From Podarcis filfolensis (lineage: Eukaryota), in the NCBI GenBank assembly GCA_964270895.1, contig OZ185435.1: 64,000 nucleotides of DNA; one strand, 5' to 3'. The notes beneath the pieces were generated by a model that was given only the letters and a program-made list of their open reading frames with translations, was not told the origin of the DNA and made no database searches. Position numbers and translations under genes: made by a program. Every line of letters begins with the position of its first letter. The first letter of the stretch is position 1. Shown in pieces: positions 13,101-56,979 of this stretch.

Positions 13101-14702
13101 TATTTGTACCCCGCCCATCTGGCTGGGTTTCCCCAGCCACTCTGGGCGGCTTCCAACAAAGATGAAAAATACACTAAAATGTCACATATTAAAAACTTCC
13201 CTGAACAGGGCTGCCTTCAGATGTCTTCTGAATGTCAGGTAGTTGTTTATCGCTTTGACATCTGATGGGAGGGCGTTCCACAGGGCGGGCGCCACTACCG
13301 AGAAGGCCCTCTGCCTGGTTCCCTGTAACTTGGCCTCTCGCAGTGAGGGAACCACCAGAAGGCCCTCGGAGCTGGACCTCAGTGTCCGGGCAGAACGATG
13401 GGGGAGGAGACACTCCTTCAGATATACTGGACCGAGGCCGTTTAGGGCTTTAAAGGTCAGCACCAACACTTTGAATTGTGCTCGGAAACGTACTGGGAGC
13501 CAATGTAGGTCTTTCAAGACCGGTGTTATATGGTCTCGGTGGCTGCTCCCAGTCACCAGTCTAGCTGCCGCATTCTGGATTAGTTGTAGTTTCTGGGTCA
13601 CCTTCAAAGGTAGCCCCACGTAGAGCGCATTGCAGTAGTCCAAGCGGGAGATAACCAGAGCATGTACCACTCTGGCGAGACAGTCTGCAGGCAGATAGGG
13701 CCTCAGCCTATGTACCAGATGGAGCTGGTAAACAGCTGCCCTGGATACAGATTTGACCTGTGCCTCCATGGACAGCTGTGAGTCCAAAATGACTCCCAGG
13801 CTGCGCACCTGGTCCTTCAGGGGCACAGTTACCCCATTTAGGACCAGGGAATCCTCCACACCTGTCCGCCTCCTGTCCCCCAAAAACAGTACTTCTGTCT
13901 TGTCAGGATTCAGCCTCAATCTGTTAGCCGCCATCCATCCTCCAACCGCCTCCAGACACTCACACAGGATCTTCACCACCTTCACTGGTTCTGATTTAGA
14001 AGAGAGGTAGAGCTGGGTATCATCCGCATACTGATGAACACCCAGCCCAAACCTCCTGATGATCTCTCCCAGTGGCTGCATGTAAATGTTGAAAAGCATG
14101 GGGGAGAGGACAGAACCCTGAGGCACCCCACAAGTGAGAGCCCAGGGGTCTGAACACTCATCCCCCACCACCACTTTCTGAACACGGCCCGTGAGGAAGG
14201 AGCGGAACCACTGTATGACAGTGCCCCCAGCTCCCAGCCCCTCAAGACGGTCCAGAAGGATGTTATGGTCGATGGTATCAAATGCCGCTGAGAGATCCAG
14301 CAGAACTAGGAAACAGCTCTCACCTTTGTCCCTAGCCCGCCGGAGATCATCAACCAGTGCGACCAAGGCAGTTTCAGTCCCATGATGAGGCCTGAATCCC
14401 GACTGGAAGGGATCCAAATGGTCTGCTTCTTCCAGGCGCGCCTGGAGTTGTTCAGCAACCACTCGCTCAATCACCTTGCCCAAGAATGGAAGATTTGAGA
14501 CTGGGCGATAATTGGCCATCGTGGCCGCATCTAAAGATGGTTTTTTAAGAAGCGGTTTAATAACCGCCTCTTTCAGCGGGTCTGGGAAGGCTCCCTCACG
14601 GAGGGAAGCATTCACCACCCCACGAAGCCCATCGCCCAGTCCTTCCTGGCTAGCTTTTATAAGCCAGGATGGGCAAGGATCCAGGAGACAGGTGGTTGGC
14701 TT
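13065..14702 (-). mobile_element. Young L2 LINE, 3' portion (downstream of the Copia insertion)
   Basis: RT-coding frame, 3' UTR and (TAA)12 tail at 13065-13100; continues at 18233-18915 on the far side of the LTR element. Confidence 0.95.
13182..14702 (-). CDS. L2 ORF2 reverse transcriptase domain and C-terminus, uninterrupted
   Basis: NYRPVSNLPFLGKVIE, FQSGFR, LLDLSAAFDTIDH, GVPQGSVLSP, YADD, LGVILD, LHWLPV; no stops. The track start at 14795 is a TTG inside the LTR; the first ATG is at 14519. Confidence 0.9.
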   Translation of the reverse strand, partial: KPTTCLLDPCPSWLIKASQEGLGDGLRGVVNASLREGAFPDPLKEAVIKPLLKKPSLDAATMANYRPVSNLPFLGKVIERVVAEQLQARLEEADHLDPFQSGFRPHHGTETALVALVDDLRRARDKGESCFLVLLDLSAAFDTIDHNILLDRLEGLGAGGTVIQWFRSFLTGRVQKVVVGDECSDPWALTCGVPQGSVLSPMLFNIYMQPLGEIIRRFGLGVHQYADDTQLYLSSKSEPVKVVKILCECLEAVGGWMAANRLRLNPDKTEVLFLGDRRRTGVEDSLVLNGVTVPLKDQVRSLGVILDSQLSMEAQVKSVSRAAVYQLHLVHRLRPYLPADCLARVVHALVISRLDYCNALYVGLPLKVTQKLQLIQNAAARLVTGSSHRDHITPVLKDLHWLPVRFRAQFKVLVLTFKALNGLGPVYLKECLLPHRSARTLRSSSEGLLVVPSLREAKLQGTRQRAFSVVAPALWNALPSDVKAINNYLTFRRHLKAALFREVFNM

Positions 14703-14994
14703 TTTGGTGAAATTGACTGGCAGCTTCGCTTGCCCCCGGAGCCCACACGCTTCCTCTGCGTGCCTCTGTTCCCTCTGGGCAGCTTCCAGCTGCAATGTAG
14801 CAGAGCGTAGTACACAGCGGTAGAAGCAAAAGCAGTAAAAGCAGTAAGCCGAGTGTGCGTAATAAATCAGGCCGGACGCTCGGTGTCCTCCTTATCTTAC
14901 AAATAGCTTTATTCCCGTAGAAAAACAACAGATCGTAACTTTCCCGGTGACATGGAACTCATCTTCGCTGCGCTCCTTGAGCGGACAAGAAACA

Positions 14995-15037
<43 letters not shown>

Positions 15038-15139
15038 AGAGACACAGTAGAACACTCCCCTTCAGTGTTCTATGCCCGCCTCTGAATGTGAGACGTCACT
15101 CAGAACTTCTTAACCCTGTAAGTTCTGACTCTCTCCATA
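14703..15139 (-). repeat. 3' LTR of the Copia-type element (437 bp)
   Basis: Direct repeat of 17816-18232; AATAAA on the minus strand at 14908-14913; 39-nt CT tract. Confidence 0.95.
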
Positions 15140-17613
15140 CCCCCTCTCGTATCACATTCTGAGAGGACTTGTGAACACACACTTACAGACCTCTGTGTGT
15201 TCCACACCTTCCCACCTGCCTGTTGAGCCTCCTCACAAATCTCAGGTTCGCACTGTGCGAGACCAACCCATGCATTTGTGAAACCTTGAAACCTCTCAGG
15301 TGGAATTCCCTTTGTTGCCCGAGATGACCGCCTGGGCACAAACTGGGGTGCTTCTTCTGACCCACTGGGGCCAGCAAGTGCGTCTTTTTCATCAGACGAC
15401 TCCCCCTCTGACTTGACCTGTCTGTGAGCTTTCTCCTTTATTCTAACAGGAGATGACGGCTCACTCTTGGACACTCCTTTAACAACCTGTGGAGACGCCT
15501 CCCCCTGGTGCTGACCCTGATCATCGATCAGGTCACCATTACCTGGCTCTCCCTCCTCCTCAGATTCAGACAGACAATCTGAGAGAACGTCATGGCTCAC
15601 TTTGCGCCTTGCCCTACTTTCCTGTTGCTCATGGAACTCAGCATGTTTACTGATCAGAAGCTTGGTCTGCTCACCTTCTGGGTATGCAAATCTCCACCCC
15701 TTCGTAGCAGGTTCATACCCACAGAAGATCATTTCCTGGTACCTTGGACCACCCTCTTGCTGCAGACACTTTGGTACAGGCACCAAGGCTCTGCAACCAA
15801 ACGAACGGAAGAAATGCACCTGCAGCCTCTGTCCGTTGAGCAAGAAATACGGGGTGTCACCTACCACTGAATTGTAGCACCTGTTCATCGTGAAATTGGC
15901 CGTCTTTACTGCCTCCCCCCAGAAACTGTGAGGCAAACCAGAGTCACACAGTAATACCTCTGATGCTTGAACCAGAGCTTTACTCCTCAGCTCTGCCACG
16001 CCACTCTCCTGAGGCGAAGTCACCTTGTGACATATCCCCCTCTGGCGAAAGAAACTCTTTAGAGCAGACCCAGTGACCTCTGAACCTCGGTCACACTTGA
16101 ACCCCTTCACCTTGGTGGAGAACCTTAGTTCCACTTCCACAACCCAATCCTTGATTAGTTGCGTTGCGTCCTCCTGCGTTCTCAGCGAGAATGCCCAAGA
16201 GTTCTGAGTGAAATCATCTGTCAGTGTCAGCAGAAACCTGGCTTTGCCCAGACTTGGCTGAGGCATAGGCCCAAACAGGTCTGCGTGCACAAGCTCAAAA
16301 GGCTTTGTGGTTACTCTCTCCACCCTGGGATAACTGTATCCCTTGGTCTTGGCTTTCCTGCAAGCCCTGCAATTTAGAGTTTCACCACATTCTCTTACCT
16401 TGCACCCTTTGGTGCACTCTGATAACATCTGAACGTCCTCACAAGACCCATGTGCCAATCTCTTGTGCCACACGCACGCACATGAAACATGAGTGTGAAT
16501 GGTAGCTTTCCCAGCATTCCCCACTCCCTCCAGAGGTGTTTCTAGAACAAAGAGGTTGTTCTGATTTTTCTCAACACGTACCAGCTGCTTCCCCCCTCTG
16601 GAAATTGTACAGACATTGTTCTCAAAACAAACCATATACCCCTCCTGTAAAAGACATGGTACAGATAAAAGACAACATTTCAGTCCTGGCGACACGTAGA
16701 CTTCCAGCTGCGCCTGCAAGAAAGAAACAAAAACATTCCCAACTTTGGTTACTTGTCTCTGTGACCCATCAGCAAAACACACTGATTTCCCAGCTGAAAC
16801 AGCTCTGCAGTTCTTTATCTGGACACCAGGTGTCTCAGGCACGAGATGTCTATTTGCAGCAGAGTCTACTATCCAACACAGCACTCTGTCCTTTGTTGCC
16901 TTAGCAACAGACTTCCCTCTGCCCCCTTCCTTGGGGCCTTTGCAGGTGCTGCTCTCCAAAACAGCCATCGAAGCAGACAGCTGATAAGCACCTTCTTCCC
17001 CCTCTGATCGCCCCTGCGCCTTCCCACGCCGGCCTCTTCTGCCGGGCTGGTTGCCATGGAAACCTGGCTGGTTCCCATGGGAAATGTCCTTGGCAGCATC
17101 CTGCCCTTTCTCTCTCTGTGGACAGCATCGGCGCAGATGGTCAGGGGAACCGCAAACATAACAACGACGAGCGGAAAACTTTACAAAGTGGCCTTTGGAC
17201 TTCTGTGCCCCCCCACTCTTGCCAGCAGCTCTCCTTGAGGCTTTTCTGCACTTGGGGATGTGGCCTTTGGCTTCCAGCTCCTGCCAAACAGCCTGGGCAC
17301 TCTCAAGACCCTTGGACTGGCCTATCTGGCCTGCACCACCAATCCTGGGTGCACAGCTTCCAGAGGAACGGACTGCTCCTGCCTTCCTCTTCCCAGCTCT
17401 CAGCCGCTTTCCAGCACACGGCCCATCTCTCTGGCGTGTTGAAGCATTGCATCGGCTTCCAAACACAGCTCCAGCCCCCACTGGGCTCTCTGGGCGTCGT
17501 CTAGCCCCCTCTGGTCTGGCTCCCACTTCCTTCAGTGCCTGCCACGCGACCCAGGGCTCCTTCCCGTCCACCTCTTCAAAAGGGACTGCACACGATTCAT
17601 GGCCGTCTGCCAT
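15100..17613 (-). CDS. 837-aa Gag-protease-integrase polyprotein without RT/RH
   Basis: True ATG in strong context (AAGATGG). Zn knuckle CYVCGSPDHLRRC; protease-like WIVDSAANRH; HHCC (WHKRLAH...CRAC); DDE integrase (VHADLFGP, KCDRGSE, GVAE); RRSSR motif; only a stub of the RT start (EPEICEEA) before the PPT; stop lies 40 nt inside the LTR. Confidence 0.88.
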   Translation of the reverse strand: MADGHESCAVPFEEVDGKEPWVAWQALKEVGARPEGARRRPESPVGAGAVFGSRCNASTRQRDGPCAGKRLRAGKRKAGAVRSSGSCAPRIGGAGQIGQSKGLESAQAVWQELEAKGHIPKCRKASRRAAGKSGGAQKSKGHFVKFSARRCYVCGSPDHLRRCCPQREKGQDAAKDISHGNQPGFHGNQPGRRGRRGKAQGRSEGEEGAYQLSASMAVLESSTCKGPKEGGRGKSVAKATKDRVLCWIVDSAANRHLVPETPGVQIKNCRAVSAGKSVCFADGSQRQVTKVGNVFVSFLQAQLEVYVSPGLKCCLLSVPCLLQEGYMVCFENNVCTISRGGKQLVRVEKNQNNLFVLETPLEGVGNAGKATIHTHVSCACVWHKRLAHGSCEDVQMLSECTKGCKVRECGETLNCRACRKAKTKGYSYPRVERVTTKPFELVHADLFGPMPQPSLGKARFLLTLTDDFTQNSWAFSLRTQEDATQLIKDWVVEVELRFSTKVKGFKCDRGSEVTGSALKSFFRQRGICHKVTSPQESGVAELRSKALVQASEVLLCDSGLPHSFWGEAVKTANFTMNRCYNSVVGDTPYFLLNGQRLQVHFFRSFGCRALVPVPKCLQQEGGPRYQEMIFCGYEPATKGWRFAYPEGEQTKLLISKHAEFHEQQESRARRKVSHDVLSDCLSESEEEGEPGNGDLIDDQGQHQGEASPQVVKGVSKSEPSSPVRIKEKAHRQVKSEGESSDEKDALAGPSGSEEAPQFVPRRSSRATKGIPPERFQGFTNAWVGLAQCEPEICEEAQQAGGKVWNTQRSVSVCSQVLSECDTRGGMERVRTYRVKKF
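15140..15148 (-). promoter_or_regulatory. Polypurine tract
   Basis: GAGAGGGGG immediately 5' of the 3' LTR on the minus strand. Confidence 0.85.
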
Positions 17614-17807
17614 CTTCTCCCCCGGGGCCCAGCTTACTTACGAACAGTAGTAGCTTCTTCACGCACCCGGTTCTGGCACAGCTCCTCCCAGCGAGCTCCC
17701 TGCCTCACGTTAGGCACCGCTCCCAGCTGGTTTCAGCTTCTCCAGCGTCATGGCTTTCAGCACACACCGGCACGGACTTGGCTTGCTTCACGGCGTCAGC
17801 TGACCTT

Positions 17808-17815
17808 CCATAACC
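17808..17815 (-). promoter_or_regulatory. Partial primer-binding site (tRNAiMet half-molecule type)
   Basis: GGTTATGG directly after the 5' LTR equals the first 8 nt of the copia PBS GGTTATGGGCCCAG, then diverges (AAGGTCAG). Confidence 0.65.
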
Positions 17816-18232
17816 TTTGGTGAAATTGACTGGCAGCTTCGCTTGCCCCCGGAGCCCACACGCTTCCTCTGCGTGCCTCTGTTCCCTCTGGGTAGCTTCC
17901 AGCTGCAATGTAGCAGAGCGTAGTACACAGCGGTAGAAGCAAAAGCAGTAAAAGCAGTAAGCCGAGTGTGCATAATAAATCAGGCCGGACGCTCGGTGTC
18001 CTCCTTATCTTACAAATAGCTTTATTCCCGTAGAAAAACAACAGATCGTAACTTTCCCGGTGACATGGAACTCATCTTCGCTGCGCTCCTTGAGCGGACA
18101 AGAAACAGACTCTCTCTCTCTCTCTCTCAGAGAGACACAGTAGAACACTCCCCTTCAGTGTTCTATGCCCGCCTCTGAATGTGAGACGTCACTCAGAACT
18201 TCTTAACCCTGTAAGTTCTGACTCTCTCCATA
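17816..18232 (-). repeat. 5' LTR of the Copia-type element (417 bp)
   Basis: Differs from the 3' LTR by two substitutions and a CT tract 20 nt shorter. Confidence 0.95.
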
Positions 18233-18915
18233 GGCTTCACTTGTCCAAGCAGCCTGTCCACATCCTCGGAGGTAACAGATTGGAATTGATCCCACACAAC
18301 TTGACTAGACAGGACTCTAGCACTCTCCCACCCTGGCCCTGCTCCCACGGTGGAGTCTACTTCTTCCCGAATCTGAGCGATTTTATCTGCAAAAAACTTT
18401 GCAAAATCATTGCAGGAGATCATGTGGCCCGTACTGGGCCACGATGTCGCAGGTGGTTCCGCTAAATTGTGAACCACCTGAAAAAGTCTCCTGCTGCTGT
18501 TTTCTGCAGATGCAATAGAGGCGGCGAAGAAAGTCTTCTTCGCCGTCGCTATCACCACTTGGTAGGCTCGACGTTGAGCTCTAACCTGTGTCCGGTCAGA
18601 TTCGGAATGAGTTATCCGCCACCGGCGCTCTAGCCGTCTCAACGATTGTTTTATTGCCCTCAGATCCGTGGAAAACCACGGGGCTGTCCGGGCTCCATGC
18701 AATCGGAGAGGGCGCTTCGGAGCCAAACAGTCAATAGCCCTGGTTAACTCCACATTCCAGCGGGCCACCAGGGAATTGGCTGAAAGGCCATCAACATGGG
18801 ATAAAGCATCCCCTACCACTCTCTGGAAACCATTTGGATCCATTAAGTGGCGGGGGCGGACCATCCGAATCAGTCCCACCTCCCTGCAGAGGGGATGGGT
18901 CGCAGAGAAGTCCAG
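18233..18915 (-). mobile_element. Young L2 LINE, 5' portion (5'-truncated, no endonuclease)
   Basis: Open frame 'LDFSATHPLCREVG...CLAPKRPLR...APWF...NDFAKFFADKIAQIR...DRLLGQVKP' rejoins 'TTCLLDPCPSWL' once the insertion and one TSD copy are removed. The 5' boundary is approximate. Confidence 0.9.
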
Positions 18916-20925
18916 CGGCCCTTCCCTGCTCCTTCTAATGCAAAGCCAGTTCTCCCGGACTCCATCTATCTCGATAGATAGAGCATAAGCTGTTGGTTCT
19001 GCCAGAGTGGAATCAAGGAAGTCTATGCCTATGCATTGTCCCAGCTTATCATTTTCCTCTTCTAGAGTCCCCAGAGCTATCTTGTTCTCTGGTGTTGTTT
19101 TGGCCCTTCAAAATACACCCCCCCCAAGTAATGAAAGTAACATGCAGCATCCCCATGGCACACTACAATTCTGAGCCCAGAATCTTGAAACAGAATGCTT
19201 CCATGGTGACCTTTGTTGACACACGCGTTAGCATGTAACGTGTGACCGGGGACATGTGCCAGCTTGGTAACAAAGAATTACTAAGTACACACATTGCCCA
19301 CTTTACAGAAGGAATGTAGAAGTCACTATTCGTTTTCAAAGGAGTTCCCCCTTGTGACATGCCTCATTTTCTATTGGTGAGAATTTGGAGAGTATCATAG
19401 AGGCAAAGAGTGAGCTTTGCTGTTTGAGTAGATGGTGCATCTCTCCGAAGGACGGAGAGTACGTACCAGGGATTGTTAACTGAACTGAGCTTGCTGGAGG
19501 AGACCAAAATGAAACCAACAGGGTGATAATGCACACACGTCTGGCTTCCTTCTCTTAAGAATCATGGTCAAGACTGAGCCAATGAAAGCTCTGGGGTCAT
19601 CTCAGGAGCACGGAGGGGAAGGAACAGAGCTGTCCACTCACAGAGAGAATGAGAGGCTTTTGGCTGTTCAGCACTGGAGAAAGAAACTGACTCGCCTGGA
19701 GCTTGCAGCCTTGCTTGAAAATGATGGAGGCTGACAGATCTGGGATTAATCTAAAAGTTTCAGCTCTTTGCACACCAAATGGAAATTTGCCTGGAAACCA
19801 TAGTGTGTGAGCCGAGAGTCTCATCAGAGACTCTGCTGGGAAGAGGGGCCTCGTGTTGGGGCTTCCTTGCACCCCCATTTTCCGTACCCTAATGCTTCGG
19901 TTGCCGGCATGCAGAACTAGAAGCCAAACATGAACACCTGTCTAGAAAGAAATCAAATAGCTTCCCTTTCTATACAAGTTTGCCGACATCATTTCCTTAG
20001 CTAAATGACTTTTAAAAAGAAAAAAAAGAAAAAACCTTCTGTAATTAGATGTGAGGGGCTATGCTGCACAGACCATTCTTAGCATCTGCAACAGTACCTA
20101 GTTACCAGATTGCGCACAGTCCCAGCAGATGAAGGATTAAAAGGGACAATTACGATGGCAAATAATTGTGCCTGTGATGGTGATCCTGCATTTAAGGGAA
20201 AACACAAAAGTGCACCTGCAGCATCAAAAGCAGAGTTGTAATGAATCTTGCTGAGGCAGACCTGGATGTTACCCCTCTCCCTCCGTCCCACCCTGGCAAG
20301 CCAGCCCCCATTAAAACATTTTGGCCACTGTCCAAAGTCATTGTGTGCAATTAATACCCATTAATATCAATGGGACCGAAGGAGGCATAATCATGGCTAA
20401 TTTCTCGAAAGCAAGGTGCAGAATTTGAGTCTGTTTTGCGACCAGCGATGGGTGATTTGATTCAGCTCAATTTAAAACTGGCTGGGGAAGCATTCATAAA
20501 GAGCTTATCTGTTGTCCATTTAATTCTTTCCCGGCACATAATGTTAGTGCATGCACACTGATGGGACCAAGTGCAAGCTCTATTGAGCATCAGTTGGCTT
20601 TGGGGTGCCTGGTCTGCGGATGCTGCCTTCATGCTTACAATCTTGTTTAGCAATCTGGGCTGGAGAAAAGTTTTGCAAAGAGATGGGTTTGTATTATGAG
20701 ATTGGCATTAGGAGCTTGACAAAGTCATATGCCAAATCAAAGAATAACTACAAACTTTTGCAACATCACTACTTCTTTCCCCTCTGGATTTTTTTTTTAA
20801 AAAAAATGAGTTTATTGACAGCGTACGAAGGTAAGAGGATCACAAAAGAAAGCAATGTATCAACATAAAGTGACACAGAGGCTTTGAAACAGGCTTAAAG
20901 ATCAATTTATTTTATGTTGCTTTTC

Positions 20926-55905: not shown

Positions 55906-56480
55906 TACAGTGGTGCCACGGAGGGGGAAATGGTGGCTTTAAACAGCAGCAGAGGTTTGAGTAAAGCAGAGCTGGAGAGACATTGAAAGGAAAATAGTAG
56001 CAGTTTTAAACAATGGCAGAGGTTTGAGTAGAGTGAGCAGGAGGAACTCTTGAGGCAGACAAAGTGCTGGTTTAAAATAAGGATTGAGGGTGAGAAGGGA
56101 GTTGGGAAAGGCTCTGTTGTGTTAGCTTTTTGGTATTAGCTTTTGCATTGTACTCATCTCTGGTATTTCTTCTTGTTACCCTCAGTGTTTCTCTCTTCTG
56201 AATCCATTCAGATCTCTCCTGTTGTTTTAATCACCACCTTCTGACTCTCCATGAATCTCCTTTCTCACCACCATGCCACAGCTGCTGCTGCTGTGAAACC
56301 TGCCTTCTCTTTTGCTCCCCTAGCCCACCCTGCAAACCCAGGATTGTGATGAGGCGCAACAAATCCTCCAATAGGGGGCTATGTGATGACACCCTTACAT
56401 TTTCATTATATGTAAGACTAGTGTTATGGAATCAGCCCATGAAAAAACCCCTCCACCAACATGGTATCGTGTTTAATGGA

Positions 56481-56979
56481 TAATATTATAAATAATAATT
56501 TATTATTTATACCTCGCCCATCTGGCTGGGTTTCCCCGGCCACTCTGGGCGGCTTTCAACAGAATATTAATAAAAAAGCGATAAAAAAATCAAACATTAA
56601 AAACTTCCCTAAACAGGGTTGCCTTCAGATGTCTTCTAAACATCAAATAGTTGTTTATTTCTTTGACATCTGATGGGAGGGCGTTCCACAGGGTGGGTGC
56701 CACTACTGAGAAGGCCCTCTGCCTGGTTCCCTGTAACCTCACTTCTCGCAATGAGGGAACTGCCAGAAGGCCCTCAGAGTTGGACCTCAGTGTCTGGGCT
56801 GAACAATGGGGGTGGTATACTGGGCCAAGGCCATTTAGGTTTTAAAGGTCAGCACCAACACTTTGAATTGTGCTCGGAAATGTACTGGGAGCCAATGTAG
56901 GTCTTTCAGGACCGGTGTTATATGGTCTCGGTGGCCACTCCCAGTCACTAGTCTAGCTGCCGCATTCTGGATTAGTTGT
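56481..56979 (-). mobile_element. 5'-truncated L2 (same subfamily as 13065-14702)
   Basis: Near-colinear with 13100-13587; small internal deletion near 56815; degenerate (TAA)n tail. Confidence 0.92.

What the first reader, a model, noticed from the sequence alone, without database searches (positions are those of the whole stretch)
14698..18237. Non-canonical LTR termini 5'-TA...AA-3', with TG...CA shifted two bases inward
Restoring the L2 target (GTG AAGCC AACC) fixes the TSD as AAGCC, so the element reads TA-TGGAGAGA ... TTTCACCA-AA. The same TA and AA occur at the internal PPT and PBS junctions. The ends form an imperfect inverted repeat (TATGGAGAGA vs TTTGGTGAAA, 7/10). Either the ends were joined with a dinucleotide beyond the CA (as expected if blunt cDNA ends are joined without 3' processing), or the normally invariant G at position 2 mutated at both ends. 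Both models imply unusual integrase specificity, which might explain why the element keeps its own integrase. TG...CA-based LTR finders would miss it.
Basis: partly seen in the sequence, partly recalled or inferred. Interest (0 to 1): 0.7.

Follow-up and report, generated by a model that had tools for sequence, protein, structure and literature searches.

The report
Copia retrotransposon family with TA…AA ends
A large family of jumping genes in this vertebrate (likely lizard) genome lacks reverse transcriptase and ends in TA…AA or TA…TA instead of the near-universal TG…CA; its relatives show that these ends likely arose by stepwise single-letter changes that integration tolerates, so the family is a natural test case for what the integrating enzyme needs at the DNA tip.

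Summary
Confirmed, and true of the whole family. The element (14703-18232, minus strand) is a 3.5-kb Ty1/Copia retrotransposon without reverse transcriptase, inserted in an L2 LINE with target duplication AAGCC. Of 278 matching LTR starts in the genome, 270 read TA. Of 62 insertions with both ends scored, 55 have an exact 5-bp TSD at the outer boundary and none at the inner TG…CA. The 'retained extra dinucleotide' idea is not supported: canonical TG…CA relatives abut PPT and PBS at the same positions and also carry the inner TG. TA and AA are therefore substitutions in register (TG…CA to TA…TA to TA…AA on the integrase tree). A young RT-bearing relative ends GA or TA in 43 of 43 junctions, so tolerance is lineage-wide, and only the terminal A is constant. 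New ends also arise when a duplicated primer site is captured into the LTR. The family's integrase is under purifying selection (dN/dS about 0.25) but has a fixed 3-residue active-site loop deletion, and its protease motif is altered; which integrase inserts these copies is open. Non-TGCA Copia ends are known in plants; TA…AA was in none of the lists read.

The parts
18233..18237 (-). 5' target-site duplication AAGCC
   Evidence: present once in 11 of 11 other L2 copies
17816..18232 (-). 5' LTR, 417 bp, TA…AA
17808..17815 (-). Primer-binding site GGTTATGG, directly abutting the LTR end; complementary to nt 32-39 of a host tRNA-Met(CAT), half-tRNA type
15100..17637 (-). Single open frame, 845 aa stop to stop (first ATG at 17613): shortened gag, zinc knuckle, protease, integrase; no RT or RNase H; runs through the PPT into the 3' LTR
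17122..17163 (-). CCHC zinc knuckle
   Evidence: read from the translation
16636..16875 (-). Protease region (Pol_BBD, E 6.5e-5, below the curated cut-off); motif reads DSA where RT-bearing relatives mostly read DSG
15622..16485 (-). Integrase: HHCC, D-D-E core, SH3-like domain; dN/dS 0.23-0.31
15991..16020 (-). Integrase active-site loop to catalytic Glu: three residues shorter than in all RT-bearing relatives, with two further fixed motif changes
   Evidence: 33 of 33 RT-less copies against 0 of 13 RT-bearing copies; aligns to the foamy-virus loop
15140..15148 (-). Polypurine tract GAGAGGGGG, directly abutting the TA of the 3' LTR
14703..15139 (-). 3' LTR, 437 bp, TA…AA
14698..14702 (-). 3' target-site duplication AAGCC
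18238..19107 (-). Host LINE (L2-type, label recalled), upstream part of ORF2
13182..14697 (-). Host LINE, downstream part of ORF2 with RVT_1 domain; 95-97% identical to other copies

Best explanation
This is a young copy of a large Copia family without reverse transcriptase whose LTRs end in TA…AA or TA…TA, ends that likely came from TG…CA by single-base changes in place and are likely joined as blunt cDNA by an integrase that needs only the terminal 3'-A. Shown: the boundaries, the family-wide ends, no spacer between LTR and PPT or PBS in this family and in its TG…CA relatives, and base-for-base register of TA with TG. Inferred: with no spacer, reverse transcription yields blunt ends that need no processing; a G-to-A change at the start of the 3' LTR and a C-to-T, then T-to-A, change at the end of the 5' LTR are each copied into both LTRs in the next round; RT (and so probably a second integrase) is borrowed from RT-bearing relatives C or D. 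A second route to new ends is seen in two stages: the LTR-end/PBS junction duplicates, priming would shift to the downstream copy, and the old PBS becomes part of the LTR. The tolerance is a property of the wider lineage rather than of this element alone; whether its own altered integrase or a helper's does the joining is unresolved (about even).
For: 55 of 62 exact TSDs at the outer boundary, 0 of 62 at the inner; 270 of 278 starts TA. Sister RT-less family E (IN 82-85% identical): 15 of 17 starts TG; TG…CA with exact TSD in 3 insertions, TG…TA in 2, TG…GA in 1 (present in 3 duplicated copies). RT-bearing family D starts TGTGA, shares the U3 motif a fixed distance from the end, and ends CA directly before the PBS in 8 of 14 loci fetched, the others showing no junction. 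IN tree of 57 copies: the two RT-less families are one branch (100/100) among D and C; in the main family CCCATA copies branch first, then CCAATA, then CCAAA; the TG…AA copy is nested and so a likely reversion. Family C, with ordinary IN motifs and near-identical LTRs, ends GA in 36 and TA in 7 of 43 junctions, never CA. Every end with a TSD ends in A. PBS capture: end moved in L031, L038, L073 and L174-176; junction duplicated but end not yet moved in L042, L070. Ty1 joins blunt cDNA (PMC2939329); the 3'-LTR mutation model is published for TARE1 (PMC3701649).
Against: No cDNA ends and no enzyme data. The three U5 endings differ in length before the last bases (CCCATA, CCAATA, CCAAA), so small indels there cannot be excluded, and in family E the TG…TA ending is not a clean point change from the TG…CA ending. 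No TG…TA or TA…CA intermediate of the main family was sampled. Deep nodes among D, C and A are open, and the LTR tree did not resolve the main family as one group. Ty1 integrase did not accept ends changed to AC (PMC2939329); TA or AA ends were not tested in the passages read. The helper is not identified.
Confidence: 0.8

Rival explanations
1. The element's own remodelled integrase acts in cis and has lost its read-out of the penultimate C, which let both ends drift (compatible with the best explanation; differs in which enzyme acts).
For: IN dN/dS 0.23 within the main family and 0.27 between the two RT-less families, 0.17-0.28 without CpG codons; D-D-E kept in 33 of 33 copies; only 5 of 150 best IN matches carry a stop; fixed 3-residue deletion at the loop whose foamy-virus residues 212-214 contact the viral DNA tip; predicted fold intact (pLDDT 80.6). 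TA starts were seen only in lineages with this integrase.
Against: The deletion is also in a TG…CA copy (L111); family C has non-CA ends with an ordinary loop; the same loop holds target DNA in the foamy-virus enzyme, so the deletion may cripple it; any particle with borrowed RT would also hold the helper's integrase (known Copia polyprotein layout).
Confidence: 0.3
2. The encoded protease-integrase is catalytically weak or dead and is kept as an adaptor that binds its own RNA (zinc knuckle) and co-assembles with helper particles; the helper's integrase does all the joining.
For: Both enzyme motifs are altered and fixed (protease DSA in 14 of 14 E loci and most main-family loci against DSG in 13 of 13 autonomous A-C loci; IN loop, N and R positions) while the domains stay under purifying selection; the N-terminal gag part evolves neutrally (dN/dS about 1) and no capsid domain was found.
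Against: All catalytic acidic residues are retained across a long branch (about 45% amino-acid divergence from D); no binding or expression data.
Confidence: 0.35
3. One reading: the true att sites are the inner TG…CA and an unprocessed dinucleotide is carried into the integrated copy.
For: 41 of 55 ends have CA at -4/-3. Distant family B in the same genome has PPT-TA-TG…CA-AA-PBS geometry with the dinucleotides removed, so such a starting point exists.
Against: B is distant (IN 27%); the near relatives C, D and E have no spacer and start TGTG, so the inner TG is just bases 3-4; 14 of 55 ends lack the inner CA; PBS-capture ends have no inner CA.
Confidence: 0.06
4. Aberrant single integration or assembly error.
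For: None.
Against: About 52 independent insertions with the same kind of ends; both LTRs agree; empty L2 sites.
Confidence: 0.01

Closest known systems
Plant non-TGCA Copia elements (LTR_retriever's seven types; lotus's eight; AtRE1 TA…TA, TARE1 TA…CA, Tos17 TG…GA, AcCOPIA1 TG…TA)
   Same: Copia, family-wide non-canonical ends, clean 5-bp TSD, first base always T, relatives with different ends intermingled on the integrase tree (10.1101/137141, PMC9804982, PMC5659011: passages read).
   Different: TA…AA is in none of the lists read; the lotus paper reports only C, G or T at the third position, here A. Vertebrate host. No RT. A series of five end types within one lineage, including ends made by PBS capture.
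TARE1 of tomato (PMC3701649, passages)
   Same: G-to-A at LTR base 2, spread by amplification; TG-starting relatives.
   Different: TARE1 keeps CA at the 3' end and is autonomous; here both ends changed and RT is missing.
Ty1 of yeast (PMC2939329, passages; best PDB sequence match 7z0h_W, E 1e-13; that this chain is Ty1 IN is recalled)
   Same: Blunt cDNA, 5-bp TSD, Copia-type integrase.
   Different: TG…CA ends, full-tRNA primer, own RT.
Half-tRNA-Met-primed Copia groups (Osser, Bryco; PMC6317226, passages)
   Same: PBS pairs with the anticodon region of tRNA-Met.
   Different: Only 8 bases pair here; clade membership not tested.
P0001, Copia polyprotein named from Podarcis lilfordi
   Same: 81% identical to family C over 1167 aa; 53% to this integrase region.
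   Different: Has RT, DSG protease motif and a full-length integrase loop.

Membership tests
Ty1/Copia superfamily | Domain order protease, pre-integrase, integrase, with RT after integrase | tested here: met
   Pol_BBD, gag_pre-integrs, rve, SH3_retrovirus in that order (first two below cut-off); homology ends where RVT_2 begins in family C
Ty1/Copia superfamily | LTRs, PBS, PPT, 5-bp TSD | tested here: met
Autonomous Copia element | RT and RNase H present | tested here: not met
   No RVT_2; RT hits in family loci lie outside the LTRs, in neighbouring elements; longest open frame among 150 best IN matches 940 aa (150 of 2992 candidates scored)
Canonical TG…CA LTR element | TG…CA flush with the TSD | tested here: not met
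   0 of 62
Non-TGCA Copia class | Non-canonical ends shared by many copies with clean TSDs; first base T | tested here: met
Non-TGCA Copia class | End type is one of the published motifs | tested here: not met
   TATA is listed, TAAA is not; supplementary tables not read
Half-tRNA-primed Copia | PBS complementary to the anticodon region of tRNA-Met | tested here: met
   8 bases pair with nt 32-39 of a host tRNA-Met(CAT); priming itself not tested
Elements with 3' processing (family B here, retroviruses) | Spacer bases between LTR end and PBS or PPT that are absent from the integrated ends | tested here: not met
   No spacer in this family or in C, D, E; present in B
TRIM, LARD or gag-only non-autonomous elements (definitions partly recalled) | No pol coding capacity | tested here: not met
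   Protease and integrase domains under purifying selection
Active DDE integrase | Strand-transfer activity | not testable with these tools
   D-D-E and fold kept, loop shortened

The most novel reading that the evidence does not exclude
A non-autonomous Copia lineage that borrows reverse transcriptase but brings its own integrase, remodelled at the loop that grips the DNA tip so that it reads only a terminal A. This frees both LTR ends to drift (TG…CA, TG…TA, TG…GA, TA…TA, TA…AA, TG…AA) and to be rebuilt by capture of duplicated primer sites.
Probability: 0.3. Interest if true: 0.72.

Novelty: new variant of a known kind. Interest (0 to 1): 0.5.

Why it matters
The terminal CA is treated as invariant for retroviruses and most LTR retrotransposons, and the plant papers read leave open how non-CA ends arise and whether the integrase co-evolves. 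One genome here holds a dated series of end types with matching integrases (ordinary loop with CA ends, ordinary loop with GA or TA ends, shortened loop with all types), which makes the question testable with natural proteins and short oligonucleotides. It also shows two stages of a route, capture of a duplicated primer site, by which an LTR end is rebuilt. Practically, motif-bound annotation would miss this family (at least 278 LTRs) and the youngest autonomous family beside it.

Tried and rejected
Inner TG…CA boundary: 0 of 62. Search for an RT-bearing member of the family: none among 150 scored IN matches or the fetched loci; not exhaustive. Most PPT-like hits fetched were unrelated sequence, and 9 of 10 TG-start loci were not LTRs. 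LTR tree: poorly resolved, long outgroup branches; used only to place L173 in family E. L173 (TA…AA in family E) suggests a second origin but has no clean outer junction, so it is not counted as an insertion. Sequencing runs: no RNA holder listed. Contigs of four runs cover parts of the LTR and the PBS junction, but no piece spans the stretch and some rows were not shown, so ends in other organisms were not scored. Homologue search gave 3 proteins, none with the shortened loop among those where the motif was found. Paper searches with no result: RT-less elements with selected or intact integrase, PBS duplication extending an LTR; narrow phrase searches, weak evidence of absence. The listings showed no title on vertebrate non-TGCA Copia. 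Earlier findings of the scan: none. Repbase and Dfam could not be searched.

Full report
What is there. The minus strand holds a 3530-bp LTR element, 18232 to 14703, between two copies of AAGCC. Its LTRs (417 and 437 bp) differ by 2 substitutions and a microsatellite length change, so it is young. It sits in the ORF2 of a LINE; 11 of 11 other copies of that LINE read across the site with the 5-mer once and nothing extra. The element therefore begins TA and ends AA. One 845-aa frame holds a zinc knuckle, protease, pre-integrase, integrase and SH3-like domain in Copia order and stops matching its relatives where RT begins. The PBS GGTTATGG abuts the LTR end and pairs with nt 32-39 of a host tRNA-Met; the PPT abuts the TA.

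Family-wide check. An exact 23-base match to the LTR start occurs 278 times; 270 are preceded by TA. I fetched 60 of the 68 stretches drawn from the first 100 listed matches plus loci. Of 82 items, 62 had both ends scorable, 13 had no end found and 7 had one LTR only. Of the 62, 55 have an exact 5-bp TSD at the outer boundary, 5 have one mismatch, 2 fail, and none matches at the inner TG…CA. Allowing for duplicated segments these are about 52 insertions. Ends: TA…AA 31, TA…TA 22, TG…AA 2. Reading 12 of the 13 unresolved items gave 3 more TA…TA with exact TSDs and no CA end. LTR pairs of 21 copies differ by 0-3.5%.

Extra dinucleotide or substitution? Family E, also without RT (IN 82-85% identical), has TG…CA in 3 insertions with exact TSDs, TG…TA in 2 and TG…GA in 1. 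Family D, with RT, starts TGTGA, shares the U3 motif just inside the end, and shows CA directly before the PBS in 8 of 14 loci fetched. In all of them PPT and PBS touch the LTR, and TG sits exactly where this family has TA; the inner TG is bases 3-4 of a TGTG start. The inner CA is missing in 14 of 55 ends. So the ends are substitutions in place. On an integrase tree of 57 copies the two RT-less families form one branch (100/100); within the main family CCCATA ends branch first, then CCAATA, then CCAAA, where the window's copy lies, and the TG…AA copy is nested, a likely reversion. Deep nodes are open and the LTR tree is weak.

How it likely works. With no spacer, reverse transcription would give blunt cDNA, as described for Ty1 (PMC2939329, passages). 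A change at the start of the 3' LTR or the end of the 5' LTR is copied into both LTRs next round, the model published for TARE1 (PMC3701649, passages). On the joined strands the ends are CA, TA, GA or AA; only the last A is constant. Tolerance is wider than this family: family C, young and autonomous with ordinary integrase motifs, ends GA in 36 and TA in 7 of 43 junctions. A second route is visible in two stages. In L042 and L070 the LTR-end/PBS junction is duplicated but the integrated end has not moved; in L031, L038, L073 and L174-176 the old PBS lies inside the LTR and the TSD follows a new TA or GA end. The inference is that primer position sets the U5 end and integration accepts it if it ends in A. 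RT must come in trans; C (youngest) and D (shares the U3 motif) are candidates, neither shown.

The integrase. dN/dS over the IN region is 0.23 within the main family (27 copies) and 0.27 against E (6 copies); frameshifted copies were left out. By domain (12 copies with open frames of 800 aa or more), protease, pre-integrase, core and SH3 give 0.21-0.41, the N-terminal gag part and the tail 0.7 or above. D-D-E is kept in 33 of 33. All 33 also lack three residues before the catalytic Glu and differ at two motif positions constant in 13 of 13 RT-bearing copies; the gap aligns with foamy-virus residues 211-213 (numbering worked out by me), a loop that contacts the scissile dinucleotide and also target DNA (PMC3395085 and PMC6784120, passages). 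The predicted fold is an intact integrase (pLDDT 80.6). The protease motif reads DSA against DSG in relatives (loci overlap, so these are not copy counts). These changes predate the odd ends, being present in a TG…CA copy. Either the enzyme is active with relaxed end reading (about 0.3) or it is a weak or dead adaptor and the helper's integrase joins the ends (about 0.35); the data do not separate these.

Against what is known. Non-TGCA Copia ends are described in plants: seven types (10.1101/137141, passages; list as quoted in PMC8220671), eight in lotus (PMC9804982, passages and section 18), TG…TT and AA…CA (PMC5659011, passages); an annelid survey lists TGAA among others. TA…TA is listed, TA…AA is not. 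Supplementary motif tables were not read and repeat databases were not searchable, so a prior record cannot be excluded. Phrase searches found no paper on RT-less Copia with a selected integrase or on PBS capture, which is weak evidence. The nearest named protein is a Podarcis lilfordi Copia polyprotein, 81% identical to family C, so the host is likely a lizard.

Verdict. A real, family-wide feature and a new variant of a known kind. Interest 0.5; 0.72 if the remodelled integrase proves to be the active, relaxed enzyme.

Noticed in passing
G000, family C (L098-L102): A young autonomous Copia family (LTRs 99.7-100% identical, open frames up to about 1550 aa) ends TG…GA or TG…TA; 43 of 43 junctions lack CA.
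   Followed up: partly
L092, L093, L103-L105 (family B): A distant Copia family has TA between PPT and LTR and 2-3 bases between CA and PBS, none of them in the integrated ends, which implies end processing; blunt and processed types coexist in one genome.
   Followed up: partly
L031, L038, L073, L042, L070, L174-L176, L164, L167; run X6: Duplications of the LTR-end/PBS junction; in some copies the old PBS is now inside both LTRs. A contig of another labelled organism carries the same 12-base insertion as L042.
   Followed up: partly
G000:C19: About 88 of the 150 best integrase matches (hand count) lie on one 43-Mb contig, 2.9% of the assembly; likely a W-type sex chromosome (inferred).
   Followed up: no
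L020, L022 (C187, C193): LTR starts directly after (TTAGGG)n repeats on small contigs.
   Followed up: no
L017, L018/L019, L126: Family copies nested inside other Copia elements.
   Followed up: partly
window 13182-14697 and 18238-19107: The host LINE is young (95-97% identical to other copies) and its ORF2 is open on both sides of the insertion.
   Followed up: partly
window 17190-17613: The N-terminal gag part evolves neutrally and is frameshifted in many copies while the downstream domains are constrained, so the start of the selected protein is unclear.
   Followed up: partly
window 56480-56979: A second fragment of the same LINE 3' end.
   Followed up: no
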